Assembly: GCA_963828345.1 (NCBI GenBank)
Contig: CAWHEZ010000029.1
Span: 69,582-133,581 of the forward strand
Reading direction: 5' to 3'
Origin: an uncultured delta proteobacterium
Lineage (GTDB): Bacteria > Desulfobacterota > Desulfobacteria > Desulfobacterales > SpSt-501
DNA: 64,000 nt
The translations under genes and the position numbers were made by a program. Of the stretch, positions 1-7,946 are shown one piece after another. Each line of letters starts with the position of its first letter. Position 1 is the stretch's first letter. A model generated the notes under the pieces. It had not been told where the DNA came from, ran no database searches, and saw only the letters and a list, made by a program, of their open reading frames with translations.

Positions 1-962
1 TCAAAAACCGGGCCATGGTGGCGCTGGCGGCGCTGGCGTTCGTCGGGATCTTCCTGTTCGACGTCCCCTTCCCCGCCATCGTGCTGGCGGCGGCCATCGT
101 CGGCTACGCGGGCGGACGGATCCGCCCCGACGTCTTCTCCGGCAGCGCGGGGCACGGCGGGAAAAAGGCCGACCCCTGCGACGAACCGGCGGTCGATCGC
201 ATGCTGGCAGCCGGCGGGATGGAGCACACCCGGCCATCGGTTGGTCGCGCCGTGCGCGTGGCCGTGGTCTGGCTGCTGGTCTGGTCGGCGCCCTTCGCCC
301 TCATCCTCTGGCTCCAGGGCACGGACGGCGTCTATTTCCAGATCGCCGCCTTCTTCAGCAAGGCCGCGGTCGTCACCTTCGGCGGGGCGTACGCGGTGCT
401 GGCCTATGCGGCCCAGCAGGCGGTGGACACGTTCGGGTGGATGCAGCCCCACGAGATGCTGGACGGCCTGGGCATGGCCGAGACCACCCCCGGCCCGCTC
501 ATCATGGTGCTGCAGTTCGTGGGCTTTCTCGCCGCCTTCCGCAACCCGGGCGGCCTCGACCCGCTGTGGGCCGGCACCCTCGGCGCCGCCGTCACGACCT
601 GGGTGACCTTCGCGCCCTGCTTCCTGTGGATCTTCCTGGGGGCGCCCTACATCGAGGCGCTGCGGGGCAACCGCAACCTCACGGCCGCGCTCTCCGCCGT
701 CACGGCGGCCGTGGTGGGGGTCGTGCTGAACCTGGCGGTGTGGTTCACCGTCAACACGGTTTTCGGCCAAGTCGACGACGTCTATGCGCTCGGCATGCAC
801 CTGCTCGTGCCGGTGTGGGGCACGCTGAACCTGCCGTCCCTGGCCATCGCCGTATTCGCCGCGCTCGCCATCTTCCGCTGGAAGATCTCCATGCTCAAGA
901 CCATCGCGGCGAGCGCCGCCCTCGGGGTCGCGTACCACGTGGTGCGCCAGGCGGTCGCGTGA
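1..962 (+). CDS. chrA: Chromate transporter (ChrA/CHR family), 5' end outside window
   Basis: Frame is open from the window edge (track ORF 15..962). Multi-TM hydrophobic protein with CHR-domain signatures FGGAYAVLAY and ETTPGPLIMVLQFVGF. Confidence 0.8.
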   Translation, partial: KNRAMVALAALAFVGIFLFDVPFPAIVLAAAIVGYAGGRIRPDVFSGSAGHGGKKADPCDEPAVDRMLAAGGMEHTRPSVGRAVRVAVVWLLVWSAPFALILWLQGTDGVYFQIAAFFSKAAVVTFGGAYAVLAYAAQQAVDTFGWMQPHEMLDGLGMAETTPGPLIMVLQFVGFLAAFRNPGGLDPLWAGTLGAAVTTWVTFAPCFLWIFLGAPYIEALRGNRNLTAALSAVTAAVVGVVLNLAVWFTVNTVFGQVDDVYALGMHLLVPVWGTLNLPSLAIAVFAALAIFRWKISMLKTIAASAALGVAYHVVRQAVA

Positions 963-992
963 GGCCGGCCGGGATCGGCACGGGGGTGGGGA

Positions 993-1472
993 TCAGCTGA
1001 AGCGGTCGTCGGCGACCTGGCGGGTAATGGCGGGCCCGGCCTTCTCCATCCAGCCCGCGCGGGCCCCGGCGGCGCAGTCGAAATCCGGCACGTGCGGCTT
1101 GATGTCCAGGAGCGGGGTGCCGTCGAGGACATCGATGTTCGCCACGTGCAGGCAGCACCCGTCGATGCGCTCGATCCGGACGAGGGATATGCCGATCGGG
1201 TTGGGCCGGTTGGGCGCACGGGTGGCGAAGAGGCCGCGCGGCTCGGTGTCGAGAAACGGCACGACCGACAGCGCGTACGGCCGCGACCGGTGAAAATGGT
1301 AGAGCAGCAGCACGTGCGAAAACCCATCCAGGTCCTTCAACCCCGGCGCGAATTCCGGGAATACTTCCACCCGCCCCGGGGCGCTGTTGGCGCTGACCGG
1401 CTGGATGGGCATGGCCGTCGCTTCCGTGAAGGGGCTGTGGATCACTCCGATCGGAGTCATCACGATGCGCAT
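993..1472 (-). CDS. TsaA/TrmO (YaeB, UPF0066) family tRNA methyltransferase
   Basis: Starts at the internal Met of track ORF 993..1952. MRIVMTPIGVIHSPF...NRPNPIGISLVRIE...LDGTPLLDIKP matches the family. The upstream part of the ORF is Arg/Gly-rich and looks out of frame. Confidence 0.8.
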   Translation of the reverse strand: MRIVMTPIGVIHSPFTEATAMPIQPVSANSAPGRVEVFPEFAPGLKDLDGFSHVLLLYHFHRSRPYALSVVPFLDTEPRGLFATRAPNRPNPIGISLVRIERIDGCCLHVANIDVLDGTPLLDIKPHVPDFDCAAGARAGWMEKAGPAITRQVADDRFS

Positions 1473-1507
1473 CGGGTTTTCTCCCTCGGGCCTCGGCGGC
1501 CGGAAGC

Positions 1508-1888
1508 TCAATGGCCGCAGCCGCCCCCGCCCGCGTGCCCGGCGCAGGCGTGCATGGCCATGAGCTCGCGCAGCTGGCCCGACTTGAGCAGGTCGAGGTT
1601 TTCGGCAACCGTGGCGGCCGCCGAGCCGAAGACGCGAATGCCCATGGCGTTCAGCTTGGACATGGCGCCCGCGCCGATCCCGCCGACGACCACCGCATCC
1701 ACCTTTCGGCCGTCGATGGCCTTGATCGGGTTGCAGGCCCCGTGCACGTGGTGCATGTCCTGATTGTTGACGCTCGTGACCTCGCCCGTAACGGCATCCG
1801 CAATCACGAATACCGGCGCCGAGCCGAAATGGTTGAACACCTTGCTCTTGATCCCTTCGTCCGCCTGCACTGCAAATGCCACTTTCAT
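1508..1888 (-). CDS. NifB/NifX-family (dinitrogenase FeMo-cofactor biosynthesis domain) small protein
   Basis: 126 aa. MKVAFA...HFGSAPVFVIAD...VDAVVVGGIGAGA is typical of the Nitro_FeMo-Co domain, with a Cys/His/Gly-rich tail. Confidence 0.75.
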   Translation of the reverse strand: MKVAFAVQADEGIKSKVFNHFGSAPVFVIADAVTGEVTSVNNQDMHHVHGACNPIKAIDGRKVDAVVVGGIGAGAMSKLNAMGIRVFGSAAATVAENLDLLKSGQLRELMAMHACAGHAGGGGCGH

Positions 1889-1902
1889 GATGTGATCTCC
1901 GT

Positions 1903-2358
1903 TTAGAGTGAATGGTTACCGCCGCCCCTGCCCCTGCCGCGCCCCCGTGCATTTCCCTCTGCCCGGATGTCGCCGCTGCTGCAGGAAGGGCATTTCATAC
2001 TCCCGTCGCGGTCGTCCGCCGGCTCCCACGCATGCCGGCAGCGGCCGCAGCTGAACGTTTTCGCCTCGGCAAGCTCGACGGAGCCCCCCTCGATCTTCAG
2101 CGCCTTGCCCCTCACCAGCGCCTCGGCCACTTTGTGGTGCGCCGCTGCGATGATGCGCCCGAACGTCTGACGGGAAACGCTCATCTTCTCCGCCGCCAGC
2201 TCCTGGTAGAGCCCTTCGAGGTCGGCCAGCCGGATGGCCTCGAACTCGTCCACGCCGAGAACGACCTCATCCAACTCCGACAGGGGAATCCCCCGGGGCT
2301 TGAAATAGGTACTCCCGGGAGCGGCGCCGATGCGCCGGCAGCGCTTGGGCCTTGGCAT
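1903..2358 (-). CDS. DUF134 (UPF0251) putative DNA-binding protein with C-terminal CxxC..CxxC ribbon
   Basis: MPRPKRCRRI...YFKPRGIPL...LDEFEAIRLADLEGL..Q..AAEKM.VSRQTF signature. SD GGAGG lies upstream of the ATG at 2358. Confidence 0.8.
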   Translation of the reverse strand: MPRPKRCRRIGAAPGSTYFKPRGIPLSELDEVVLGVDEFEAIRLADLEGLYQELAAEKMSVSRQTFGRIIAAAHHKVAEALVRGKALKIEGGSVELAEAKTFSCGRCRHAWEPADDRDGSMKCPSCSSGDIRAEGNARGRGRGRGGGNHSL

Positions 2359-2382: not shown

Positions 2383-2411
2383 ATTATGAGCATATGCTCA
2401 ATACATGTCAA
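2383..2411 (-). promoter_or_regulatory. Sigma70-type promoter TTGACA-N17-CATAAT with an overlapping perfect palindrome TGAGCATATGCTCA (2387-2400)
   Basis: The minus strand reads GGGCTTGACATGTATTGAGCATATGCTCATAAT, about 25 nt upstream of the DUF134 start. Same architecture as the arsR promoter at 5533-5561. Confidence 0.55.
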
Positions 2412-2510: not shown

Positions 2511-2832
2511 TTACTTGCGGAACAGGCGTTCGAAAAGGCTCTTTTTCGCGGAACTCTTGGGTGGAAACCGCATGGGGTTCAGTTTCCGATGAGTCGGCTG
2601 AAGAAGCCTTTCCGTGCGGGCCAACAACGGGAAGCCCGAGATGTCTCCGGATAACGGCCTCCACCTTCTCCTCGGAGATGCCTGAACCTTCGACCACGAT
2701 CTCATCCGCCACCATCAGGGCTGGAGCAACCGGCAGCTCCAACTCGAAATAGGCATCCGTCTGGTATTCGGCTTGGGGTTTGGACGTAACCTCGATCTCG
2801 ATGTCGTATTTAGAGCCCAGCCTGGGCATCAT
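2511..2832 (-). CDS. Hypothetical small protein, last gene of the ArsR operon; 3' frame ambiguous
   Basis: Track ORF 2398..2832 starts MMPRLGSKYDIEIEV. Its 3' third runs through the DUF134 promoter. Alternative frames encode KGFFSRLIGN* and ...KKSLFERLFRK* (stop 2511), suggesting indels near 2585-2625. Confidence 0.3.
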
Positions 2833-2881
2833 GGCGTTGAACCCCTTTCAGGGCTTGCCGTTGGGCTCGTTGAGAAAGAAT

Positions 2882-4651
2882 CTAACCTTGAGCATGGCCA
2901 TCTCCCGTTTCGCGTGCCTCTTTTATGAGTTTGTTCATGCGTTCTACGAACTGGTCCGAGGGCAGGTAGTCCACCAGCCGCAGGTCCTGTCGCTCTCTGC
3001 CTGTCTCATCCAAAAATACAACCGTGGGGACGCCCTTGACCGCGTACTCTCTCAACAGTCTCTCTTTGAGAGCATCGCCGGCCTGCGTCACGTCGACCTT
3101 GACCATGACGAAGCGTTCTCGCGCCAACCCGACGATGGCTGGATCATGAAATGTAATCTCGTCCAACTCCCTGCACGGCGCGCACCATGCCGCATAGAAG
3201 TCGATGATGACCGGCTTCCCGCTGCTTCGCGCAGCCTCCAGTGATTCGTCTGAATATGAAACCCAGGTCACTGCCGGTCCACGCATGATCCAGGAGGCAA
3301 GCAGCAGGACCGCGACCGCAAAGGGGAGAGCGCCGGAGGCGGCCTTGAGCCATGGGAACATTCTGAAGCTCGCCTCCGTGCGATCGAGCCACGCGAGGTG
3401 GATGCCCGCTGCAAGCAACGACGCGGCAAGGGCGATGGTCGCGGCAGGCTCCCGGAGAACCGGCTTCAGGAAGTAGACTGCCATCACGACCAGCACCCAG
3501 CCCATGAGCTTTCGGACCCAGATCATCCATCCCCCCGCTCGGGGCAGGCGTTTGAGTTGGCCGGAGAACAGCGCCAATACAAACAGGGGCAGTCCGAGGC
3601 CGATGCTGAGCGTAAAGAACACGATGAAACCGATAAGCGGGCTGCCCATGCTGGCGACCCACGTGAGAAGGCCCAGCACAAAGGGACCGATGCAGGGTGC
3701 GGCTACCACACCCAGGGTCAATCCCATGAAGAGGCTGCCGCCATAGCCGCGGTACGACTTCGCCGACGCCTGCGTGAGACCGCTCGGAAGGCGTAGCTCC
3801 CACAGGCCGAAGAGACTGGTGGCGAACAGAACCAGCACCGTCGCGACCCCCATCAGTACCGCCGGATGCTGAAGCACCCCTCCCATGAGGCTGCCGGTCA
3901 GGGCTGCGGCGGTACCCAGAATGGAGTTTGTGAGTGCAAGCCCGAGCAGGTAACAAAGCCCATGCGCGACCAGGCGGCCTCTGCGCCTGTCCGATGCCGC
4001 CCGACCGCCGAAGTATGAGACCGTGATGGGGATCATCGGGTAAACGCACGGCGTGAGGTTGAGGGCCATTCCTCCCGCGAAGATCCCCAGGAGCGTCCAG
4101 ATCATGGCCCAGCCGTATAAAGGGCCGGGGGGGCGCTGCTCCCGACTTGAAGTTGCCAAGCCGGCGGGCTGGCTTCCGATCGGCAATCCCACCTTCTGCC
4201 ACTCCGGAAAGCCAAGGGGATCACGGTACACATTCTTGTATCCAAGCTGAACGGCCACCCGGGCCGCCGAGTCGCTGCGGACTCATGTCAGGCCTGCTCA
4301 GTAAAAAACGACGAGTCGCTCCTTGTCCGGTCCGAGCAGGTGTTGCAGATCATCGGCCTTACGCCAGCGCGACCACCAGGTCGGCTCGATCGGGAAGTTG
4401 ATGGCACCATGGATGTGGCCGGTCCGGTACTCCCAGTCCTGCCGCGTGTCGATCAGCATGGGGGTGTGTTGTGAAACCATCGACGCAAGCTCTTGAGTCG
4501 TGACGAGCCGGTAACCACCCCGTTGAGCTTCCGCCTTAACATCCTCCCATGTTGCTTCCCTGGGGGTGACGGCCTGATGGGTCCACCACAAGGAAGCGAT
4601 CGCAACCGACACGGCAACTGCCGTCATGATAAACGTTCGGCTGAGGTTCAT
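2882..4651 (-). CDS. Membrane-anchored rhodanese - CcdA/DsbD transmembrane core - thioredoxin fusion. Two in-frame TGA (4298-4300, 4283-4285) read as candidate selenocysteines.
   Basis: Track ORFs 4298..4651 (rhodanese N-part ending VVFY) and 2882..4258 (starts inside the rhodanese C-part GYKNVYRDPLGFPEWQKVGLPI, then LNLTPCVYPMIP and WCAPC) are in the same frame. They are separated only by TGA-AGLT-TGA-VRSDSAAR. Confidence 0.6.
4250..4285 (-). promoter_or_regulatory. Tandem SECIS-like hairpins downstream of the two UGA codons
   Basis: Hairpin 1 is UGAGUC/CGCAGC/GACUCG (4285-4268). Hairpin 2 is GGCGGCC/CGGGU/GGCCGUU (4268-4250). The apical loops lie about 18-23 nt after the respective UGA. 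Confidence 0.4.
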
Positions 4652-5100
4652 GGCAGCCGGCCCTCTCGTTTCAGCTTGGAGACCAGGAAGGTCGCCCCCC
4701 TGGCGGAAAGCCCCAGCTCGGCTACCAGGTCCTCGGCCATCAGGTTGGAGCGTGACGCCGCAAGGGCCGCAACTTCATGCTCAAGCTCTTCAAGCCAGTC
4801 TTCGAACAGGACCAGGATCTCGGGGTTGGTGATCGCGGTCAGTTGCTTGGACTGCGCCACCTTGTCCACCAGGCTCTGGCACATCTGCGTTGGGTCGACA
4901 CCTTCGCCCATGCATTCGGCCAGTCAGAGGTGAACCATGCTCGAGACTTTGTCGGCTTCAGACTCTCCGACGATCTGCAGGAGGAACGCACTCCTGGCCT
5001 CCTCGGGAACGACAGGGAAGATCGACTTCAACGCCTCGCCGATCGCCCCGAGAGCGCTCTCGGGGTCCATTCGGGCGAGGATCTTTGAAACCTGGCTCAT
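4648..5100 (-). CDS. Hypothetical protein with C-terminal winged-helix-like segment. In-frame TGA (4924-4926) read as candidate selenocysteine in an HL-U-LAEC motif.
   Basis: Track ORFs 4924..5163 and 4648..4911 share one frame across a single TGA. Best start is ATG 5100, with GGAGG 8 nt upstream. The stop overlaps the next start (ATGA at 4648-4651). Confidence 0.45.
4891..4910 (-). promoter_or_regulatory. SECIS-like hairpin
   Basis: UGGGCGA-AGGUG-UCG(A)CCCA: a 7-bp stem with a one-nucleotide bulge and a GGU-containing apical loop. It begins 13 nt after UGA 4926-4924. Confidence 0.4.
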
Positions 5101-5119
5101 AACCGCAGCCTCCATTGGA

Positions 5120-5491
5120 TCAGAGAGACGTTCTTCCTGCGACCAGACTTGCCGCAACGGCACTCAACGTGCCGACAACTTCTATGACTCGCGGATCGGC
5201 CAGGCCATAGTAAACGAACGGGCCCTCGCGCTGAATGTCCACCAACAGGCACCTCCGGAGTTCCCTCAAGTGGTGGGACACCAACGGCTGTGAGAGGCCT
5301 ACCTCCTCTACGATTCTGGTAACTGACTTTCTGGTGCCCACCATGGACATGAGAATGCGGAGTCTGTTTTCGTCTGCAATTCCCTTCGCAAGGATTGCGA
5401 CTGACCGACACCCATCGCGATCGAGCCGGCTGCCTTGGGTCTGGGTCGAGTCGGTCGCAGGACTCTTTCTCTGAGCGGTTACCCTTTTCAT
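5120..5491 (-). CDS. ArsR/SmtB family transcriptional regulator
   Basis: LAKGIADENRLRILMSMV...KSVTRIVEEVGLSQPLVSHHLRELRR is a wHTH of ArsR type. ATG 5491 is preceded by GGTGG. The track ORF starts at TTG 5512. Confidence 0.85.
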   Translation of the reverse strand: MKRVTAQRKSPATDSTQTQGSRLDRDGCRSVAILAKGIADENRLRILMSMVGTRKSVTRIVEEVGLSQPLVSHHLRELRRCLLVDIQREGPFVYYGLADPRVIEVVGTLSAVAASLVAGRTSL

Positions 5492-5532
5492 TCGCCACCG
5501 TTTTGCCGGCAAGGTTTACCCGATGCGTTAGC

Positions 5533-6766: not shown

Positions 6767-7846
6767 CTAATCGGAATGCAGGACCACGGTGAATGCGTTG
6801 AACGCCACCCGGACCGGGTCGCCCGGCCGCAGGCCGAGCGTCTTGCGGCTCTGCTCGGTGACGACCGCGCAGATCTCGGTTCCGTCGGCGATGCGGGCCA
6901 CGATCTCCGCGGTGACCTTCCCGCGCACGACGCGCTCGACCGTTGCGGCGAGCACGTTGTCCGCCGAAGACCCCGGATCGTCGGCGCCGCGGTAGACGGT
7001 CACCCAGGGCGCCTTCACCTCGGCCGCGACGAGGCCGCCCTGCTTCAGCCCCAGTCGGTCCAGGCTGCCGTTGGTGATGACGGCGCTGATGCGGCAGCCG
7101 CCCGGCGTCGCGATCTCCACCCGGGCCTGCACGTCGCCCTTGACGAGGGTTTCGATCTTCCCGAAGAAGGCGTTGCGCGCGCTGGTCTTGCGTCGGTTCT
7201 CCCGATCGACGAAGAAGGCCTCGACCCGCCGCATGTCCTCCTCGGAAAAGCTCACGTAGGCGGCGGCCAGGCTGGGGGTCGAATGCCCGAGGATCCGCTG
7301 GACGACCGGCAGCGGGACGTTGCCCTGCAGCAGCTCGACGGCCCGGGAGCGGCGGATGACCTCGGGCGCGCCCATTTCACGCGGCAGGCCGCAGGCCGCG
7401 GCGCACGCGTAGAATTTGCGGCGCACGTGGGCCGGGTCCAGCCTGAGAGCCCGCGCTCCCGTGCGGCTCAGGGACAGGAGTCCCAGAACCTCTTGAACCT
7501 CGGTCGCCACCCCATCCGGCAGCTGGACGTTGCGGCCGGTACGATCGCTCGCGCCGGCCCCTTTGCGAAACCGGACCGTGTGGCTGTCCCGGTCGAAGTC
7601 GGTCTGGAAATCGAGATCGAGCACCTCGTTGAGGCGTGCGCCCGTGTAGCGGATCAGGAGGAAAATCAGCAGAACCCTGCGCCGGGAGGACACGAGATCC
7701 GCCCGGCGGGGGGACCCCGCCCATGCGCGCAGCGCCTGCTCGAGCCGGTCGAGCTGGATGGGGTCCAGGCAGCGGCCCGGACCCTGCCCGGACAGGATGC
7801 GGGCATGATCCGGTGCCGGGGGGCGTCGGCTTCGGGTCGTCATCAT
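6767..7846 (-). CDS. Tyrosine-recombinase-fold (XerD-like) domain fused to two TOBE/Mop oxyanion-binding domains; putative tungstate/molybdate-responsive regulator (TunR-like)
   Basis: The N-terminal two-thirds resembles an integrase catalytic domain (LIRYTGARLNEV, LGHS...AAYV). The C-terminal third has two NAFxGKI...G...V TOBE repeats. It is divergent from a molybdate-type transporter. Confidence 0.65.
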   Translation of the reverse strand: MMTTRSRRPPAPDHARILSGQGPGRCLDPIQLDRLEQALRAWAGSPRRADLVSSRRRVLLIFLLIRYTGARLNEVLDLDFQTDFDRDSHTVRFRKGAGASDRTGRNVQLPDGVATEVQEVLGLLSLSRTGARALRLDPAHVRRKFYACAAACGLPREMGAPEVIRRSRAVELLQGNVPLPVVQRILGHSTPSLAAAYVSFSEEDMRRVEAFFVDRENRRKTSARNAFFGKIETLVKGDVQARVEIATPGGCRISAVITNGSLDRLGLKQGGLVAAEVKAPWVTVYRGADDPGSSADNVLAATVERVVRGKVTAEIVARIADGTEICAVVTEQSRKTLGLRPGDPVRVAFNAFTVVLHSD

Positions 7847-7914
7847 GGGCGGCCGTGGGTCCTTTCCGGTCGGGTGTGCGGCGCGGCGATGCGAGGATCT
7901 TTGCAGGAAAAGTC

Positions 7915-7943
7915 TTGACGCGTCGCGGGCAGCGCGCTATAAC
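7915..7943 (+). promoter_or_regulatory. Sigma70-type promoter TTGACG-N17-TATAAC for the MOT1-type transporter
   Basis: Hexamers at 7915-7920 and 7938-7943. Confidence 0.45.
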
Positions 7944-7946
7944 TGG

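What the first reader, a model, noticed from the sequence alone, without database searches (positions are those of the whole stretch)
2882..4651. Rhodanese active-site loop written with two in-frame TGA codons and fused to a DsbD/CcdA core plus thioredoxin: candidate U-x4-U selenoprotein
- **Upstream ORF.** Minus-strand ORF 4651->4298 encodes a membrane anchor plus the first part of a rhodanese fold ending ...DKERLVVFY. It stops at TGA (4300-4298).
- **Same-frame continuation.** Reading on in the same frame gives A-G-L-T, a second TGA (4285-4283), then VRSDSAARVAVQLGYKNVYRDPLGFPEWQKVGLPI, which is the missing C-terminal part of the rhodanese fold. The frame then runs without a stop into track ORF 4258->2882, which contains the CcdA/DsbD core LNLTPCVYPMIP and a C-terminal FYAAWCAPC thioredoxin.
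- **Position of the TGAs.** The first TGA sits where rhodaneses carry the catalytic Cys, directly after the hydrophobic strand. The second is 5 residues later in the same loop, giving U-A-G-L-T-U.
- **Not an indel.** No frameshift is needed, unlike the indel-type disruptions elsewhere in this window.
- **Hairpins.** Two hairpins follow: UGAGUC/CGCAGC/GACUCG (4285-4268) and GGCGGCC/CGGGU/GGCCGUU (4268-4250). They put G-containing apical loops about 18-23 nt after each UGA, which is bacterial-SECIS-like geometry.
- **Inference.** This would be a 589-aa selenoprotein in which a diselenol (or selenol/thiol) rhodanese loop is wired to a transmembrane reductant conduit.
Basis: partly seen in the sequence, partly recalled or inferred. 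Interest (0 to 1): 0.85.

Follow-up and report, generated by a model that had tools for sequence, protein, structure and literature searches.

The report
Known double-selenocysteine TsoB membrane reductase gene
The two in-frame TGA codons are real and almost certainly encode selenocysteine, but the gene belongs to the TsoB family, which was described in 2025 along with its three-selenoprotein operon, so it is a correct reading of a known thing.

Summary
The minus-strand frame 4651→2882 is open except for two TGAs (4300-4298 and 4285-4283), giving VVFY-U-AGLT-U-VRS.

The flanking genes are TsoR, TsoA (L-U-LAEC) and TsoC (NEPNGKP-U). Together they form the published "three selenoprotein operon" (Haft & Tolstoy 2025, as listed in review PMC13188914).

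- **TGA conservation.** All 57 rhodanese-containing orthologous loci, each from a different species genome, carry TGA at both columns.
- **Cys homologs.** Two full-length homologs have Cys at both columns.
- **Catalytic position.** The first TGA aligns with the catalytic Cys of solved rhodaneses. The second lies in a 2-residue loop insertion.
- **RNA structure.** The second hairpin has compensatory changes at third-codon positions.

Topology and fold point to a DsbD whose periplasmic α domain has been replaced by the Sec-x4-Sec rhodanese domain.

The Sec-decoding machinery could not be checked from this window, and the function has not been tested experimentally. Verdict: real and correctly read, but already known.

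The parts
5120..5512 (-). tsoR, an ArsR/SmtB-type metalloregulator and the first gene of the cluster
   Evidence: NCBIfam NF045707 TsoR, 136 bits against a cutoff of 115. Pfam HTH_5.
4648..5115 (-). tsoA, the LULAxC-motif selenoprotein. The in-frame TGA is at 4926-4924 (…SSMVHL-U-LAEC…). The start codon is uncertain (5115 or an upstream GTG at 5163). Its stop overlaps the tsoB start as ATGA.
   Evidence: Translation. NF045695, 214 bits against a cutoff of 170. The same L-TGA-[LM]AxC motif lies upstream of tsoB in 30/57 copies scanned (56 loci plus the window), always as TGA.
4891..4910 (-). SECIS-like hairpin of tsoA: a 7-bp stem with one bulge and an AGGUG loop, starting 14 nt after the UGA
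   Evidence: RNAalifold consensus over 32 distinct orthologous sequences. By my reading of that alignment, the G-C pair changes to A-U (GGGCG/CGACCC versus GGACG/CGAUCC). The same hairpin appears in the single-sequence fold.
2882..4651 (-). tsoB, a 589-codon gene for the rhodanese/DsbD-fusion double selenoprotein
   Evidence: NF045694, 967 bits against a cutoff of 805, covering model positions 2-571 of 572. Translation.
4580..4639 (-). N-terminal membrane anchor, residues 5-24
   Evidence: Hydropathy peak of 1.96. The model of the Cys homolog has a helix at residues 3-24.
4193..4501 (-). Rhodanese-like domain, residues 51-153. It is inferred to be periplasmic and contains both Sec codons.
   Evidence: Pfam PF00581, 58 bits. 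Alignments to PDB rhodaneses 6mxv and 3d1p.
4298..4300 (-). UGA1 = Sec118, on the catalytic-Cys column of rhodaneses
   Evidence: Aligns to the Cys of FYCGGG--FRS (6mxv) and FYCAS--GKRG (3d1p). TGA in 57/57 loci. Cys in P0009 and P0012.
4283..4285 (-). UGA2 = Sec123, in a 2-residue insertion of the active-site loop
   Evidence: Same calls as UGA1. The PDB alignments open a 2-residue gap opposite …LT-U or T-U….
4268..4285 (-). Hairpin 1, the candidate SECIS for UGA1. The stem is (U)GAGUC/GACUC(G) and the loop is CGCAGC. The stem includes the G and A of UGA2.
   Evidence: 94.3% of cells are paired across 58 sequences, but there is no covariation. Stem codons have frozen synonymous sites: GAC 58/58 and GUC 95%. 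The loop codon CGN varies freely.
4251..4267 (-). Hairpin 2, the SECIS for UGA2. The stem is GCGGCC/GGCCGU and the loop is CGGGU, starting 15 nt after UGA2.
   Evidence: 99.4% of cells are paired. Two pairs show compensatory changes (GC/AU/CG and CG/UA) in 14 cells, and 0 of 500 shuffles reach this. The covarying positions are third-codon positions of Ala and Val codons. This is the only helix in the RNAalifold consensus that coincides with either proposed hairpin.
3455..4102 (-). DsbD/CcdA-type transmembrane core of 8 predicted helices, with Cys202 (4048-4046) and Cys320 (3694-3692)
   Evidence: Pfam DsbD_TM, E = 2e-42. NF001419 DsbD model positions 167-572 are matched. Hydropathy and K/R distribution. 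Both Cys are invariant in the 9-sequence alignment.
3008..3268 (-). C-terminal thioredoxin-like (DsbDγ-like) domain with W-C490-A-P-C493 (3184-3173)
   Evidence: Pfam Thioredoxin_7, 67 bits. The best PDB fold matches of the homolog model are DsbDγ structures (1uc7, 2fwf, 1vrs), target TM 0.78-0.81.
2511..2895 (-). tsoC, the NEPxGxxU-motif selenoprotein, with its TGA at 2850-2848. The start overlaps the end of tsoB by 14 nt. The 3' end is frameshifted in this window.
   Evidence: Translation. NF045708, 145 bits against a cutoff of 45. NEPxGxx-TGA lies downstream of tsoB in 45/57 copies scanned (56 loci plus the window). Most orthologs are 103-106 aa and those printed end in …LFGK/LFGG-type tails. 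The window's matching C-terminus, KKSLFERLFRK*, is in another frame.
2815..2827 (-). SECIS-like hairpin of tsoC: GCCCA/GGC/UGGGC, starting 20 nt after the UGA
   Evidence: RNAalifold consensus over 54 sequences, with variants such as ACCC…GGGU and CCCC…GGGG.

Best explanation
The locus is tsoB, a bacterial selenoprotein gene in which both UGA codons are decoded as selenocysteine. It lies inside a tightly packed tsoR-tsoA-tsoB-tsoC cluster, the published 'three selenoprotein operon'.

**Shown here**
- One continuous, conserved reading frame runs across both TGAs.
- Both TGAs are conserved in every ortholog examined, and Cys occupies both columns in the rare non-Sec homologs.
- UGA1 sits on the catalytic-Cys column of rhodaneses.
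- RNA-level constraint and covariation are present directly downstream of the UGAs.
- The architecture is an N-terminal anchor, a rhodanese domain, 8 transmembrane helices with two invariant Cys, and a DsbDγ-like thioredoxin domain with CxxC.

**Inferred mechanism of decoding**
- Two tandem SECIS hairpins recruit SelB one after the other.
- Hairpin 1 starts about 13 nt after UGA1 and contains UGA2 in its stem. It serves UGA1 and is then melted by the ribosome.
- Hairpin 2 starts 15 nt after UGA2 and serves UGA2.

**Inferred mechanism of the protein**
- TsoB works like DsbD with the periplasmic α domain swapped for a rhodanese domain.
- Reducing equivalents from a cytoplasmic thiol or selenol donor cross the membrane through Cys202/Cys320.
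- They pass to the periplasmic Cys490-x-x-Cys493 and then to the Sec118/Sec123 pair.
- The Sec pair then reduces or carries a periplasmic sulfur, selenium or metalloid species.
- The ArsR/SmtB-type regulator TsoR presumably switches the cluster on in response to that species.
For: **Identity**
- TsoB matches NF045694 at 967 bits against a cutoff of 805, over the full length.
- TsoR, TsoA and TsoC all score above their cutoffs.
- The review table lists TsoB as UxxxxU with 2 Sec, as part of the Tso operon.

**Sec coding**
- TGA/TGA is present in 56 loci plus a second copy in L055, and in L057.
- The Cys/Cys homologs use TGC and TGT.
- Public gene calls are split at the same points. The 120 listed of 964 N-terminal-fragment hits are almost all 117-119 aa (range 111-134), and one cluster of 36 sequences is 97% identical to the window. 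Most of the 120 best C-terminal hits are about 450 aa.
- TGA is otherwise the normal stop here: 43 of 56 crude ORFs end in TGA.

**SECIS**
- Pair counts and covariation support hairpin 2.
- Synonymous diversity is 0.35 in the post-UGA2 segment, against 0.55-0.67 in seven control motifs of the same gene. The highest values inside the segment fall at the loop codons.
- Analogous conserved hairpins follow the TsoA and TsoC UGAs.

**Mechanism**
- The topology has K/R-rich loops at 204-231 and 367-375, which places the rhodanese and Trx domains on the same, outer side.
- The DsbD model is matched over its β and γ regions only.
- The γ-like fold matches 1uc7, 2fwf and 1vrs.
- UGA1 aligns to the catalytic Cys of rhodaneses.
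Against: - No Sec-decoding gene or tRNA-Sec lies in the 64-kb window or in 38 related loci, so the machinery is assumed rather than shown.
- Hairpin 1 shows no covariation, and a few orthologs have mismatches in it.
- Single-sequence folding energies are not unusual: z = -1.2 and -1.5 for the two hairpins and +0.3 for the whole 55 nt.
- TsoA and TsoC have no recognisable signal peptide by inspection of their N-termini, so they are probably not periplasmic substrates of the Sec pair. Their link to TsoB is unexplained.
- A diselenide is hard to reduce with dithiols (my own knowledge), which argues against a simple DsbD-like redox relay ending in a Se-Se bond.
- The transmembrane part of the structural model has low confidence (pLDDT 40-60).
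- No experimental data exist for any Tso protein, as far as the held literature shows.
Confidence: 0.9

Rival explanations
1. These are two separate genes or a decayed pseudogene. A truncated rhodanese fragment ends at a true TGA stop, and an independent DsbD-like gene follows, which is how most automatic annotations call it.
For: Public gene calls are split exactly this way, into a ~119-aa 'predicted sulfurtransferase' and a ~450-aa 'thiol:disulfide interchange protein DsbD'. TGA is the usual stop codon in this window.
Against: - Both TGAs and the peptide between and after them (xGLx, VRSDSAARVAV) are conserved in frame in 57/57 species at 54-73% identity.
- The rhodanese Pfam domain spans both TGAs.
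- Cys replaces both in full-length homologs.
- The curated full-length model scores above its cutoff.
- A conserved, covarying hairpin follows.
Confidence: 0.02
2. This is a sequencing or assembly artefact, or a reassigned genetic code: the TGAs are really TGC/TGT, or TGA encodes Trp or Gly in this organism.
For: The window matches long-read metagenome contigs. It contains at least one probable indel in tsoC.
Against: - The disruption consists of substitution-type stop codons, not indels.
- Independent assemblies at 93-97% identity end the N-terminal ORF at the same residue, including a cluster of 36 sequences, and so do 57 other species.
- 43 of 56 crude ORFs in the window terminate at TGA, so TGA is not a general sense codon.
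- Homologs have Cys, not Trp or Gly, at both columns.
Confidence: 0.01
3. Both UGAs are Sec, but a single SECIS (hairpin 2) serves both codons. Hairpin 1 is conserved for another reason, for example UGA2 codon context or interactions with SelB or the ribosome.
For: - Only hairpin 2 shows covariation, and hairpin 1 has none.
- RNAalifold predicts hairpin 2 but not hairpin 1.
- The apical loop of hairpin 2 lies 21 nt after UGA2 and 36 nt after UGA1. Both distances fall within the 16-37 nt range used by bacterial SECIS search models (the range is from my own knowledge).
Against: - The stem codons of hairpin 1 are nearly invariant at synonymous sites (GAC 58/58, GUC 95%, Ser always AGY). The codon in its loop (CGN) varies freely, which is the pattern expected of a real stem-loop.
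- Its spacing from UGA1 (about 13 nt) matches that of hairpin 2 from UGA2 (15 nt) and of the TsoA hairpin (14 nt).
Confidence: 0.3
4. The Sec pair is not the end of a redox relay. It is a binding or carrier site for a soft metal, a metalloid or a chalcogen atom (for example an Se-X-Se bridge), with the DsbD part only keeping it reduced or releasing the ligand.
For: - The regulator is an ArsR/SmtB-type metalloregulator.
- Neighbours in several loci are oxyanion or metalloid transporters: ChrA in the window and directly upstream of tsoR in L087, ArsP in L086, TauE in L087 and a DedA-type protein in L088.
- Rhodaneses are persulfide and perselenide carriers, and diselenides resist thiol reduction (both from my own knowledge).
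Against: There is no direct evidence. The flanking genes differ from locus to locus. The conserved wiring to a DsbDγ-like CxxC domain is what a redox relay would need.
Confidence: 0.4

Closest known systems
TsoB, the rhodanese/DsbD fusion-like selenoprotein (NCBIfam NF045694; Haft & Tolstoy 2025 mSystems, as listed in PMC13188914)
   Same: Full-length match above the curated cutoff. The U-x4-U motif with 2 Sec is present, as are the adjacent TsoA (LULAxC), TsoC (NEPxGxxU) and TsoR genes.
   Different: Nothing of substance. Its tsoC carries a 3' frameshift.
E. coli-type DsbD (NF001419; α-β-γ thiol:disulfide electron transporter)
   Same: The 8-helix transmembrane core has two invariant Cys, and the periplasmic γ thioredoxin-like domain has CxxC. 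The model's best PDB matches are DsbDγ. The overall order is N-terminal periplasmic domain, membrane core, then C-terminal periplasmic domain.
   Different: The Ig-like α domain with its Cys pair is absent and is replaced by a rhodanese domain with a Sec pair. The DsbD model scores 242 bits, below its 330-bit cutoff, and is matched only from position 167 onward.
Single-domain rhodaneses / sulfurtransferases (PF00581; e.g. PDB 6mxv, 3d1p, GlpE)
   Same: The domain is a rhodanese fold. UGA1 sits directly after the hydrophobic β-strand, on the catalytic-Cys column, followed by …RS and a helix.
   Different: The nucleophile is Sec. The active-site loop is 2 residues longer and holds a second Sec (U-AGLT-U-V-R against C-xxG-x-R). 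The domain is membrane-anchored and fused to a reductase.
Other rhodanese-type selenoproteins (forms 1-4 in PMC13188914: UxxS, UxxG, CxU; NF041203 rhodanese_LYCAU)
   Same: They carry Sec in the rhodanese catalytic loop, and all were found by Sec/Cys homology.
   Different: They have a single Sec, are soluble, and have no DsbD fusion. NF041203 scores only 33 bits against a 115-bit cutoff here.
Cys-form rhodanese-DsbD fusions (P0009 and P0012, 578 aa, 60% identical)
   Same: Same three-domain architecture and loop length, with Cys at both Sec columns.
   Different: They use TGC/TGT. The one locus examined (P0012, locus L081) is not in a tso operon: no TsoA, TsoC or TsoR is nearby. They are rare, at 2 of the 120 best hits.

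Membership tests
TsoB (NF045694) | Full-length HMM score at or above the curated cutoff | tested here: met
   967.3 bits against a cutoff of 805. Protein residues 6-575 match model positions 2-571 of 572.
TsoB (NF045694) | UxxxxU motif: two in-frame TGA codons in the rhodanese loop | tested here: met
   The TGAs are at 4300-4298 and 4285-4283. The review table gives the TsoB motif as UxxxxU with 2 Sec.
TsoB (NF045694) | Rhodanese + DsbD transmembrane + thioredoxin fusion | tested here: met
   Pfam PF00581, PF02683 and PF13899 in that order.
TsoB (NF045694) | Membership of the three-selenoprotein operon with TsoA and TsoC | tested here: met
   TsoA (NF045695, 214 bits against 170) lies directly upstream and TsoC (NF045708, 145 against 45) directly downstream. 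TsoR (NF045707, 136 against 115) lies upstream of TsoA. Start and stop codons overlap.
Bacterial selenoprotein gene (general criteria) | In-frame TGA conserved among orthologs | tested here: met
   57/57 loci, from 57 species-representative genomes.
Bacterial selenoprotein gene (general criteria) | Cys-containing homologs align Cys to the TGA column | tested here: met
   P0009 and P0012 have Cys at both columns. The codons in L081 are TGC and TGT.
Bacterial selenoprotein gene (general criteria) | SECIS-like stem-loop with a G-containing apical loop shortly downstream of the UGA | tested here: met
   Hairpin 2 is 99.4% paired with compensatory changes. Hairpin 1 is 94% paired and conserved but does not covary. 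Synonymous-site constraint supports both. No Rfam model exists to test against.
Bacterial selenoprotein gene (general criteria) | Genome encodes selA, selB, selC (tRNA-Sec) and selD | not testable with these tools
   No tRNA of any kind is in the window and none of the Sec type is in 38 related loci. Only 64 kb of the genome is available.
Bacterial selenoprotein gene (general criteria) | Selenium actually incorporated in the protein | not testable with these tools
   This needs 75Se labelling or mass spectrometry.
DsbD (NF001419) | Transmembrane β domain with two essential Cys | tested here: met
   DsbD_TM E = 2e-42. C202 and C320 are invariant in alignment A1.
DsbD (NF001419) | Periplasmic γ thioredoxin-like domain with CxxC | tested here: met
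   WCAPC at residues 489-493. The best fold matches of the Cys-homolog model are DsbDγ structures, target TM 0.78-0.81.
DsbD (NF001419) | N-terminal Ig-like α domain with a Cys pair, and a whole-protein score above cutoff | tested here: not met
   Only model positions 167-572 are matched. The score is 242 bits, below the 330-bit cutoff. The N-terminal domain is a rhodanese.
Rhodanese sulfurtransferase (PF00581) | Rhodanese α/β domain | tested here: met
   58.3 bits against a cutoff of 22.2, covering model positions 1-101 of 102.
Rhodanese sulfurtransferase (PF00581) | Canonical six-residue catalytic loop C-x-x-G-x-[RT] with a Cys nucleophile | tested here: not met
   The nucleophile column is TGA (Sec). 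The loop is two residues longer, and alignments to 6mxv and 3d1p open a 2-residue gap.

The most novel reading that the evidence does not exclude
The two UGAs, 15 nt apart, are each served by their own minimal SECIS hairpin in tandem. The stem of the first hairpin contains the second UGA, so SelB has to be recruited twice in quick succession, and the ribosome melts the first SECIS before reading the second Sec codon. I could not read the primary Tso paper, so I cannot tell whether this arrangement has been described. If it has not, it would be a compact natural model for closely spaced Sec insertion. A further reading not excluded by the evidence is that the Sec-x4-Sec rhodanese is a new periplasmic acceptor branch of the DsbD electron-transfer family, acting on a chalcogen or metalloid.
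Probability: 0.5. Interest if true: 0.45.

Novelty: already known. Interest (0 to 1): 0.25.

Why it matters
The scan's tool-free reader correctly recognised a double selenoprotein that standard gene callers still split into a "sulfurtransferase" and a "DsbD" in most of the ~240 best public entries listed. That validates the approach.

Biologically, TsoB is an uncharacterised case in which a DsbD-type membrane electron conduit ends in a selenocysteine pair inside a rhodanese fold. Its substrate and its link to TsoA and TsoC are unknown.

However, the family, its UxxxxU motif and its operon were published in 2025 and are already in NCBI's annotation models. This window therefore adds another member rather than a discovery.

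The comparative SECIS data gathered here (tandem hairpins, covariation, synonymous-site freeze) may be useful for designing read-through experiments.

Tried and rejected
- **Primary paper.** Haft & Tolstoy 2025 could not be opened by PMC id, DOI or PubMed id. What is said about Tso rests on the review PMC13188914 and on the NCBIfam model names.
- **Rfam.** The gathering scan of the whole window gave no hits.
- **tRNA search.** There are no tRNA genes in the window and no tRNA-Sec in 38 related loci.
- **Thermodynamic test.** Z-scores for the hairpins were -1.2 and -1.5, and +0.3 for the whole 55-nt region, whose minimum-energy fold differs from the two-hairpin model. The case for the hairpins is therefore comparative, not energetic.
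- **Other selenoproteins.** A window-wide screen for further in-frame TGAs found none outside the tso genes.
- **ORF clustering.** Clustering flanking ORFs with TGA read-through allowed collapsed into spurious giant clusters. I replaced it with annotated neighbourhoods.
- **TsoR operator or promoter.** I found only weak overlapping palindromes and no σ70-like site upstream of tsoR. The one strong σ70-like site (2411-2383) belongs to the downstream DUF134 gene.
- **Pfam on TsoA and TsoC.** No families matched.
- **Close-relative DNA.** DNA for the 86%-identical relative was not retrievable.
Full report
**1. The observation**

Translating the minus strand from 4651 to 2882 gives one reading frame of 590 codons. 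It is interrupted only by TGA at 4300-4298 and TGA at 4285-4283, and it ends at TAG. The local peptide is …LLGPDKERLVVFY-*-AGLT-*-VRSDSAARVAVQLGYKNVYRDPLGFPEWQKVGLPI….

With the two stops read as Cys, Pfam finds three domains in order:
- a rhodanese domain at residues 51-153, which spans both TGAs;
- a DsbD transmembrane core at 184-399;
- a thioredoxin-like domain at 462-548.

**2. What it is**

[quoted passage not shown] It scores 967 bits against a curated cutoff of 805, end to end.

The flanking genes complete a known system:
- Upstream, frame 5163→4648 reads …SSMVHL-TGA-LAECMGEGVDPT… and matches TsoA, the "LULAXC motif selenoprotein".
- Downstream, 2895→ reads MLKVRFFLNEPNGKP-TGA-KGF… and matches TsoC, the "NEPxGxxU motif selenoprotein".
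- The gene before tsoA matches the ArsR/SmtB-type regulator TsoR.

All three score above their curated cutoffs. The genes are tightly packed: the tsoA stop and tsoB start overlap as ATGA, and tsoC starts 14 nt before the tsoB stop.

A 2026 review lists TsoA, TsoB (motif UxxxxU, 2 Sec), TsoC, TsoX and TsoY. It describes the "Tso (three selenoprotein operon)" and cites Haft & Tolstoy 2025. I could not open that primary paper.

**3. Independent evidence that the TGAs encode Sec**

- **Split gene calls.** A protein search returned thousands of relatives, and most of the 120 best listed were called at about 450 aa, starting just after the second TGA. A search with the N-terminal part returned 964 hits. 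The 120 best listed were almost all 117-119 aa (range 111-134), matching the window's 117-aa ORF that ends at UGA1. They include a 36-member cluster 97% identical to the window. The same break therefore recurs in many independent assemblies, which argues against a local sequencing error.
- **Cys homologs.** Two full-length homologs carry Cys at both columns: P0009 has YCTGQTCVRS and P0012 has YCAGPDCVRS, with codons TGC and TGT.
- **Derived loss.** A third homolog, P0030, has GGA and CGA at the two columns, each one substitution from TGA. Its neighbouring TsoA keeps its TGA, so it looks like a derived loss.
- **Species-level conservation.** In a scan of one genome per species, all 56 loci that matched my motif have TGA at both columns, with the pattern F-Y-U-x-G-L-[TAS]-U-[VA]-R-S-D. 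One locus holds two copies. The one remaining rhodanese-containing locus has a variant loop, FY-U-DGMD-U-VVSD, also TGA/TGA.
- **Catalytic column.** Alignment to solved rhodaneses puts the first TGA on the catalytic Cys (6mxv FYCGGG--FRS; 3d1p FYCAS--GKRG). The second TGA falls in a two-residue loop insertion.
- **TGA is a normal stop here.** 43 of 56 crude ORFs in the window end in TGA. A screen for other in-frame TGAs with coding-like flanks found only the tso ones.

**4. The hairpins**

I aligned 58 codon-registered sequences running from 12 nt before UGA1 to 96 nt after it (A2).

Hairpin 2 (window 4267-4251; GCGGCC/CGGGU/GGCCGU):
- It is paired in 99.4% of cells.
- Two of its six pairs show compensatory changes, GC↔AU↔CG and CG↔UA, in 14 cells. 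None of 500 shuffles reaches this, and slid controls fall to 22-55% pairing.
- The covarying bases are third positions of Ala and Val codons, so protein constraint does not explain them.

Hairpin 1 (4285-4268; GAGUC/CGCAGC/GACUC, which includes the G and A of UGA2):
- It is paired in 94% of cells, but there is no covariation and a few sequences are broken.

Synonymous-site analysis supports both hairpins:
- Codon diversity at ≥4-fold sites is 0.35 in the VRSDSAARVAV segment, against 0.55-0.67 in seven equally conserved control motifs of the same gene.
- Asp is GAC in 58/58 sequences.
- The most variable codons inside the segment are the two Arg codons that lie in the predicted loops and the Val codon at the 3′ edge of hairpin 2, whose third base lies just outside the stem.

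Single-sequence folding energies are unremarkable, so the evidence is comparative. Conserved hairpins with G-rich loops also follow the TsoA and TsoC UGAs, 14 and 20 nt downstream, and their stems also appear to covary.

The spacing of hairpin 1 from UGA1 (about 13 nt) and of hairpin 2 from UGA2 (15 nt) suggests two tandem SECIS elements. A single SECIS serving both codons cannot be excluded.

**5. How the protein probably works (inference)**

- **Topology.** Hydropathy gives an N-terminal anchor (residues 5-24) and eight helices between 181 and 458. K/R-rich loops at 204-231 and 367-375 place the rhodanese and thioredoxin domains on the same, outer side.
- **DsbD relationship.** The DsbD model NF001419 is matched only over its β and γ regions and scores below its cutoff.
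- **Structure.** A model of the Cys homolog has mean pLDDT 74.6. It is good for the rhodanese and Trx domains and poor for much of the membrane core. Its best PDB matches are DsbDγ structures, including the α-γ complex 1VRS.
- **Proposed relay.** TsoB therefore looks like DsbD with the α domain replaced by a rhodanese carrying Sec118 and Sec123. The route would be a cytoplasmic donor → Cys202/Cys320 → Cys490/Cys493 → the Sec pair → a periplasmic substrate.
- **Possible substrate.** The ArsR/SmtB-type regulator and the recurrent, though variable, oxyanion and metalloid transporters nearby hint at a chalcogen or metalloid substrate. These include ChrA in the window and next to tsoR in L087, ArsP, TauE and a DedA-type protein. 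This is speculative.
- **Open point.** TsoA and TsoC lack obvious signal peptides, so their relation to the periplasmic Sec pair is unexplained.

**6. What could not be tested**

No Sec-decoding gene or tRNA-Sec lies in the window or in 38 related loci. Only 64 kb of the genome is available. Selenium incorporation and function need experiments.

**7. Verdict**

The feature is a genuine double-selenocysteine gene, but it belongs to a family and operon that are already published and are covered by NCBI annotation models. It counts as already known, and interest is modest. The tandem-SECIS geometry is the only aspect that might go beyond what is described.

Noticed in passing
window 2511-2705 (tsoC 3' end, minus strand): tsoC has a frameshift near its 3' end. 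Most orthologs are 103-106 aa and those printed end in …LFGK/LFGG-type tails. In the window the matching tail, KKSLFERLFRK*, with its stop at 2513-2511, is in a different frame from the N-terminal part, so the ORF runs on to 2398. This is probably a long-read indel, or else a real mutation. The Sec site is unaffected.
   Followed up: partly
window 2882-5163 versus the rest of the window: The tsoB ORFs have a GC3 of about 0.72-0.74, against roughly 0.85-0.95 for most neighbouring genes (tsoA and tsoC did not enter that table). This suggests the cluster was acquired horizontally.
   Followed up: no
window 15-2358 and 6767-9233: The tso cluster is embedded among molybdate and oxyanion-themed genes:
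- a MOT1-type molybdate transporter (7845-9233, +);
- a tyrosine-recombinase-like protein fused to Mop/ModE domains (7846-6767, -);
- DUF134 (2358-1903, -);
- a Nitro_FeMo-Co/NifX-like protein (1888-1508, -);
- a TrmO-like protein (about 1470-993, -);
- a chromate transporter (15-962, +).

A ChrA gene also sits directly upstream of tsoR in L087.
   Followed up: partly
L082:5001-6764 (protein P0030): This TsoB ortholog has GGA (Gly) and CGA (Arg) in place of the two TGAs. The TsoA upstream keeps its TGA, and a TsoX gene (Pfam PF26315) is adjacent. It may be a Sec-less, inactive derivative.
   Followed up: partly
L055 (tsoB TGA1 at 0-based offsets 4033 and 8415, i.e. 1-based 4034 and 8416); L003, L005, L025, L031, L045: One locus carries two nearly identical tsoB copies. 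Several loci carry two TsoC paralogs downstream of tsoB, each with its own NEPxGxx-TGA.
   Followed up: no
L058:~7241: In this locus the TsoB match starts only at residue 202, with no rhodanese part detected, yet a NEPNGKP-TGA TsoC gene lies downstream. It may be a truncated or divergent TsoB.
   Followed up: no
window 4648-4911 (TsoA C-terminal half): The post-TGA half of TsoA gets weak HTH_24 (winged-helix) hits in precomputed Pfam annotations of orthologs. TsoA may therefore be a DNA-binding selenoprotein.
   Followed up: no
window 2383-2411 (minus strand): A strong σ70-like promoter match (TTGACA-17-CATAAT, 11 of 12) lies just upstream of the DUF134 gene, inside the spurious tsoC extension.
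   Followed up: no
whole window: The window's rpsP protein sequence occurs on long ENA metagenome contigs (ERZ25039596, ERZ25039487 and ERZ25039503; 268-849 kb). The source is therefore an uncultured high-GC bacterium (66.7% GC) from a long-read assembly.
   Followed up: partly
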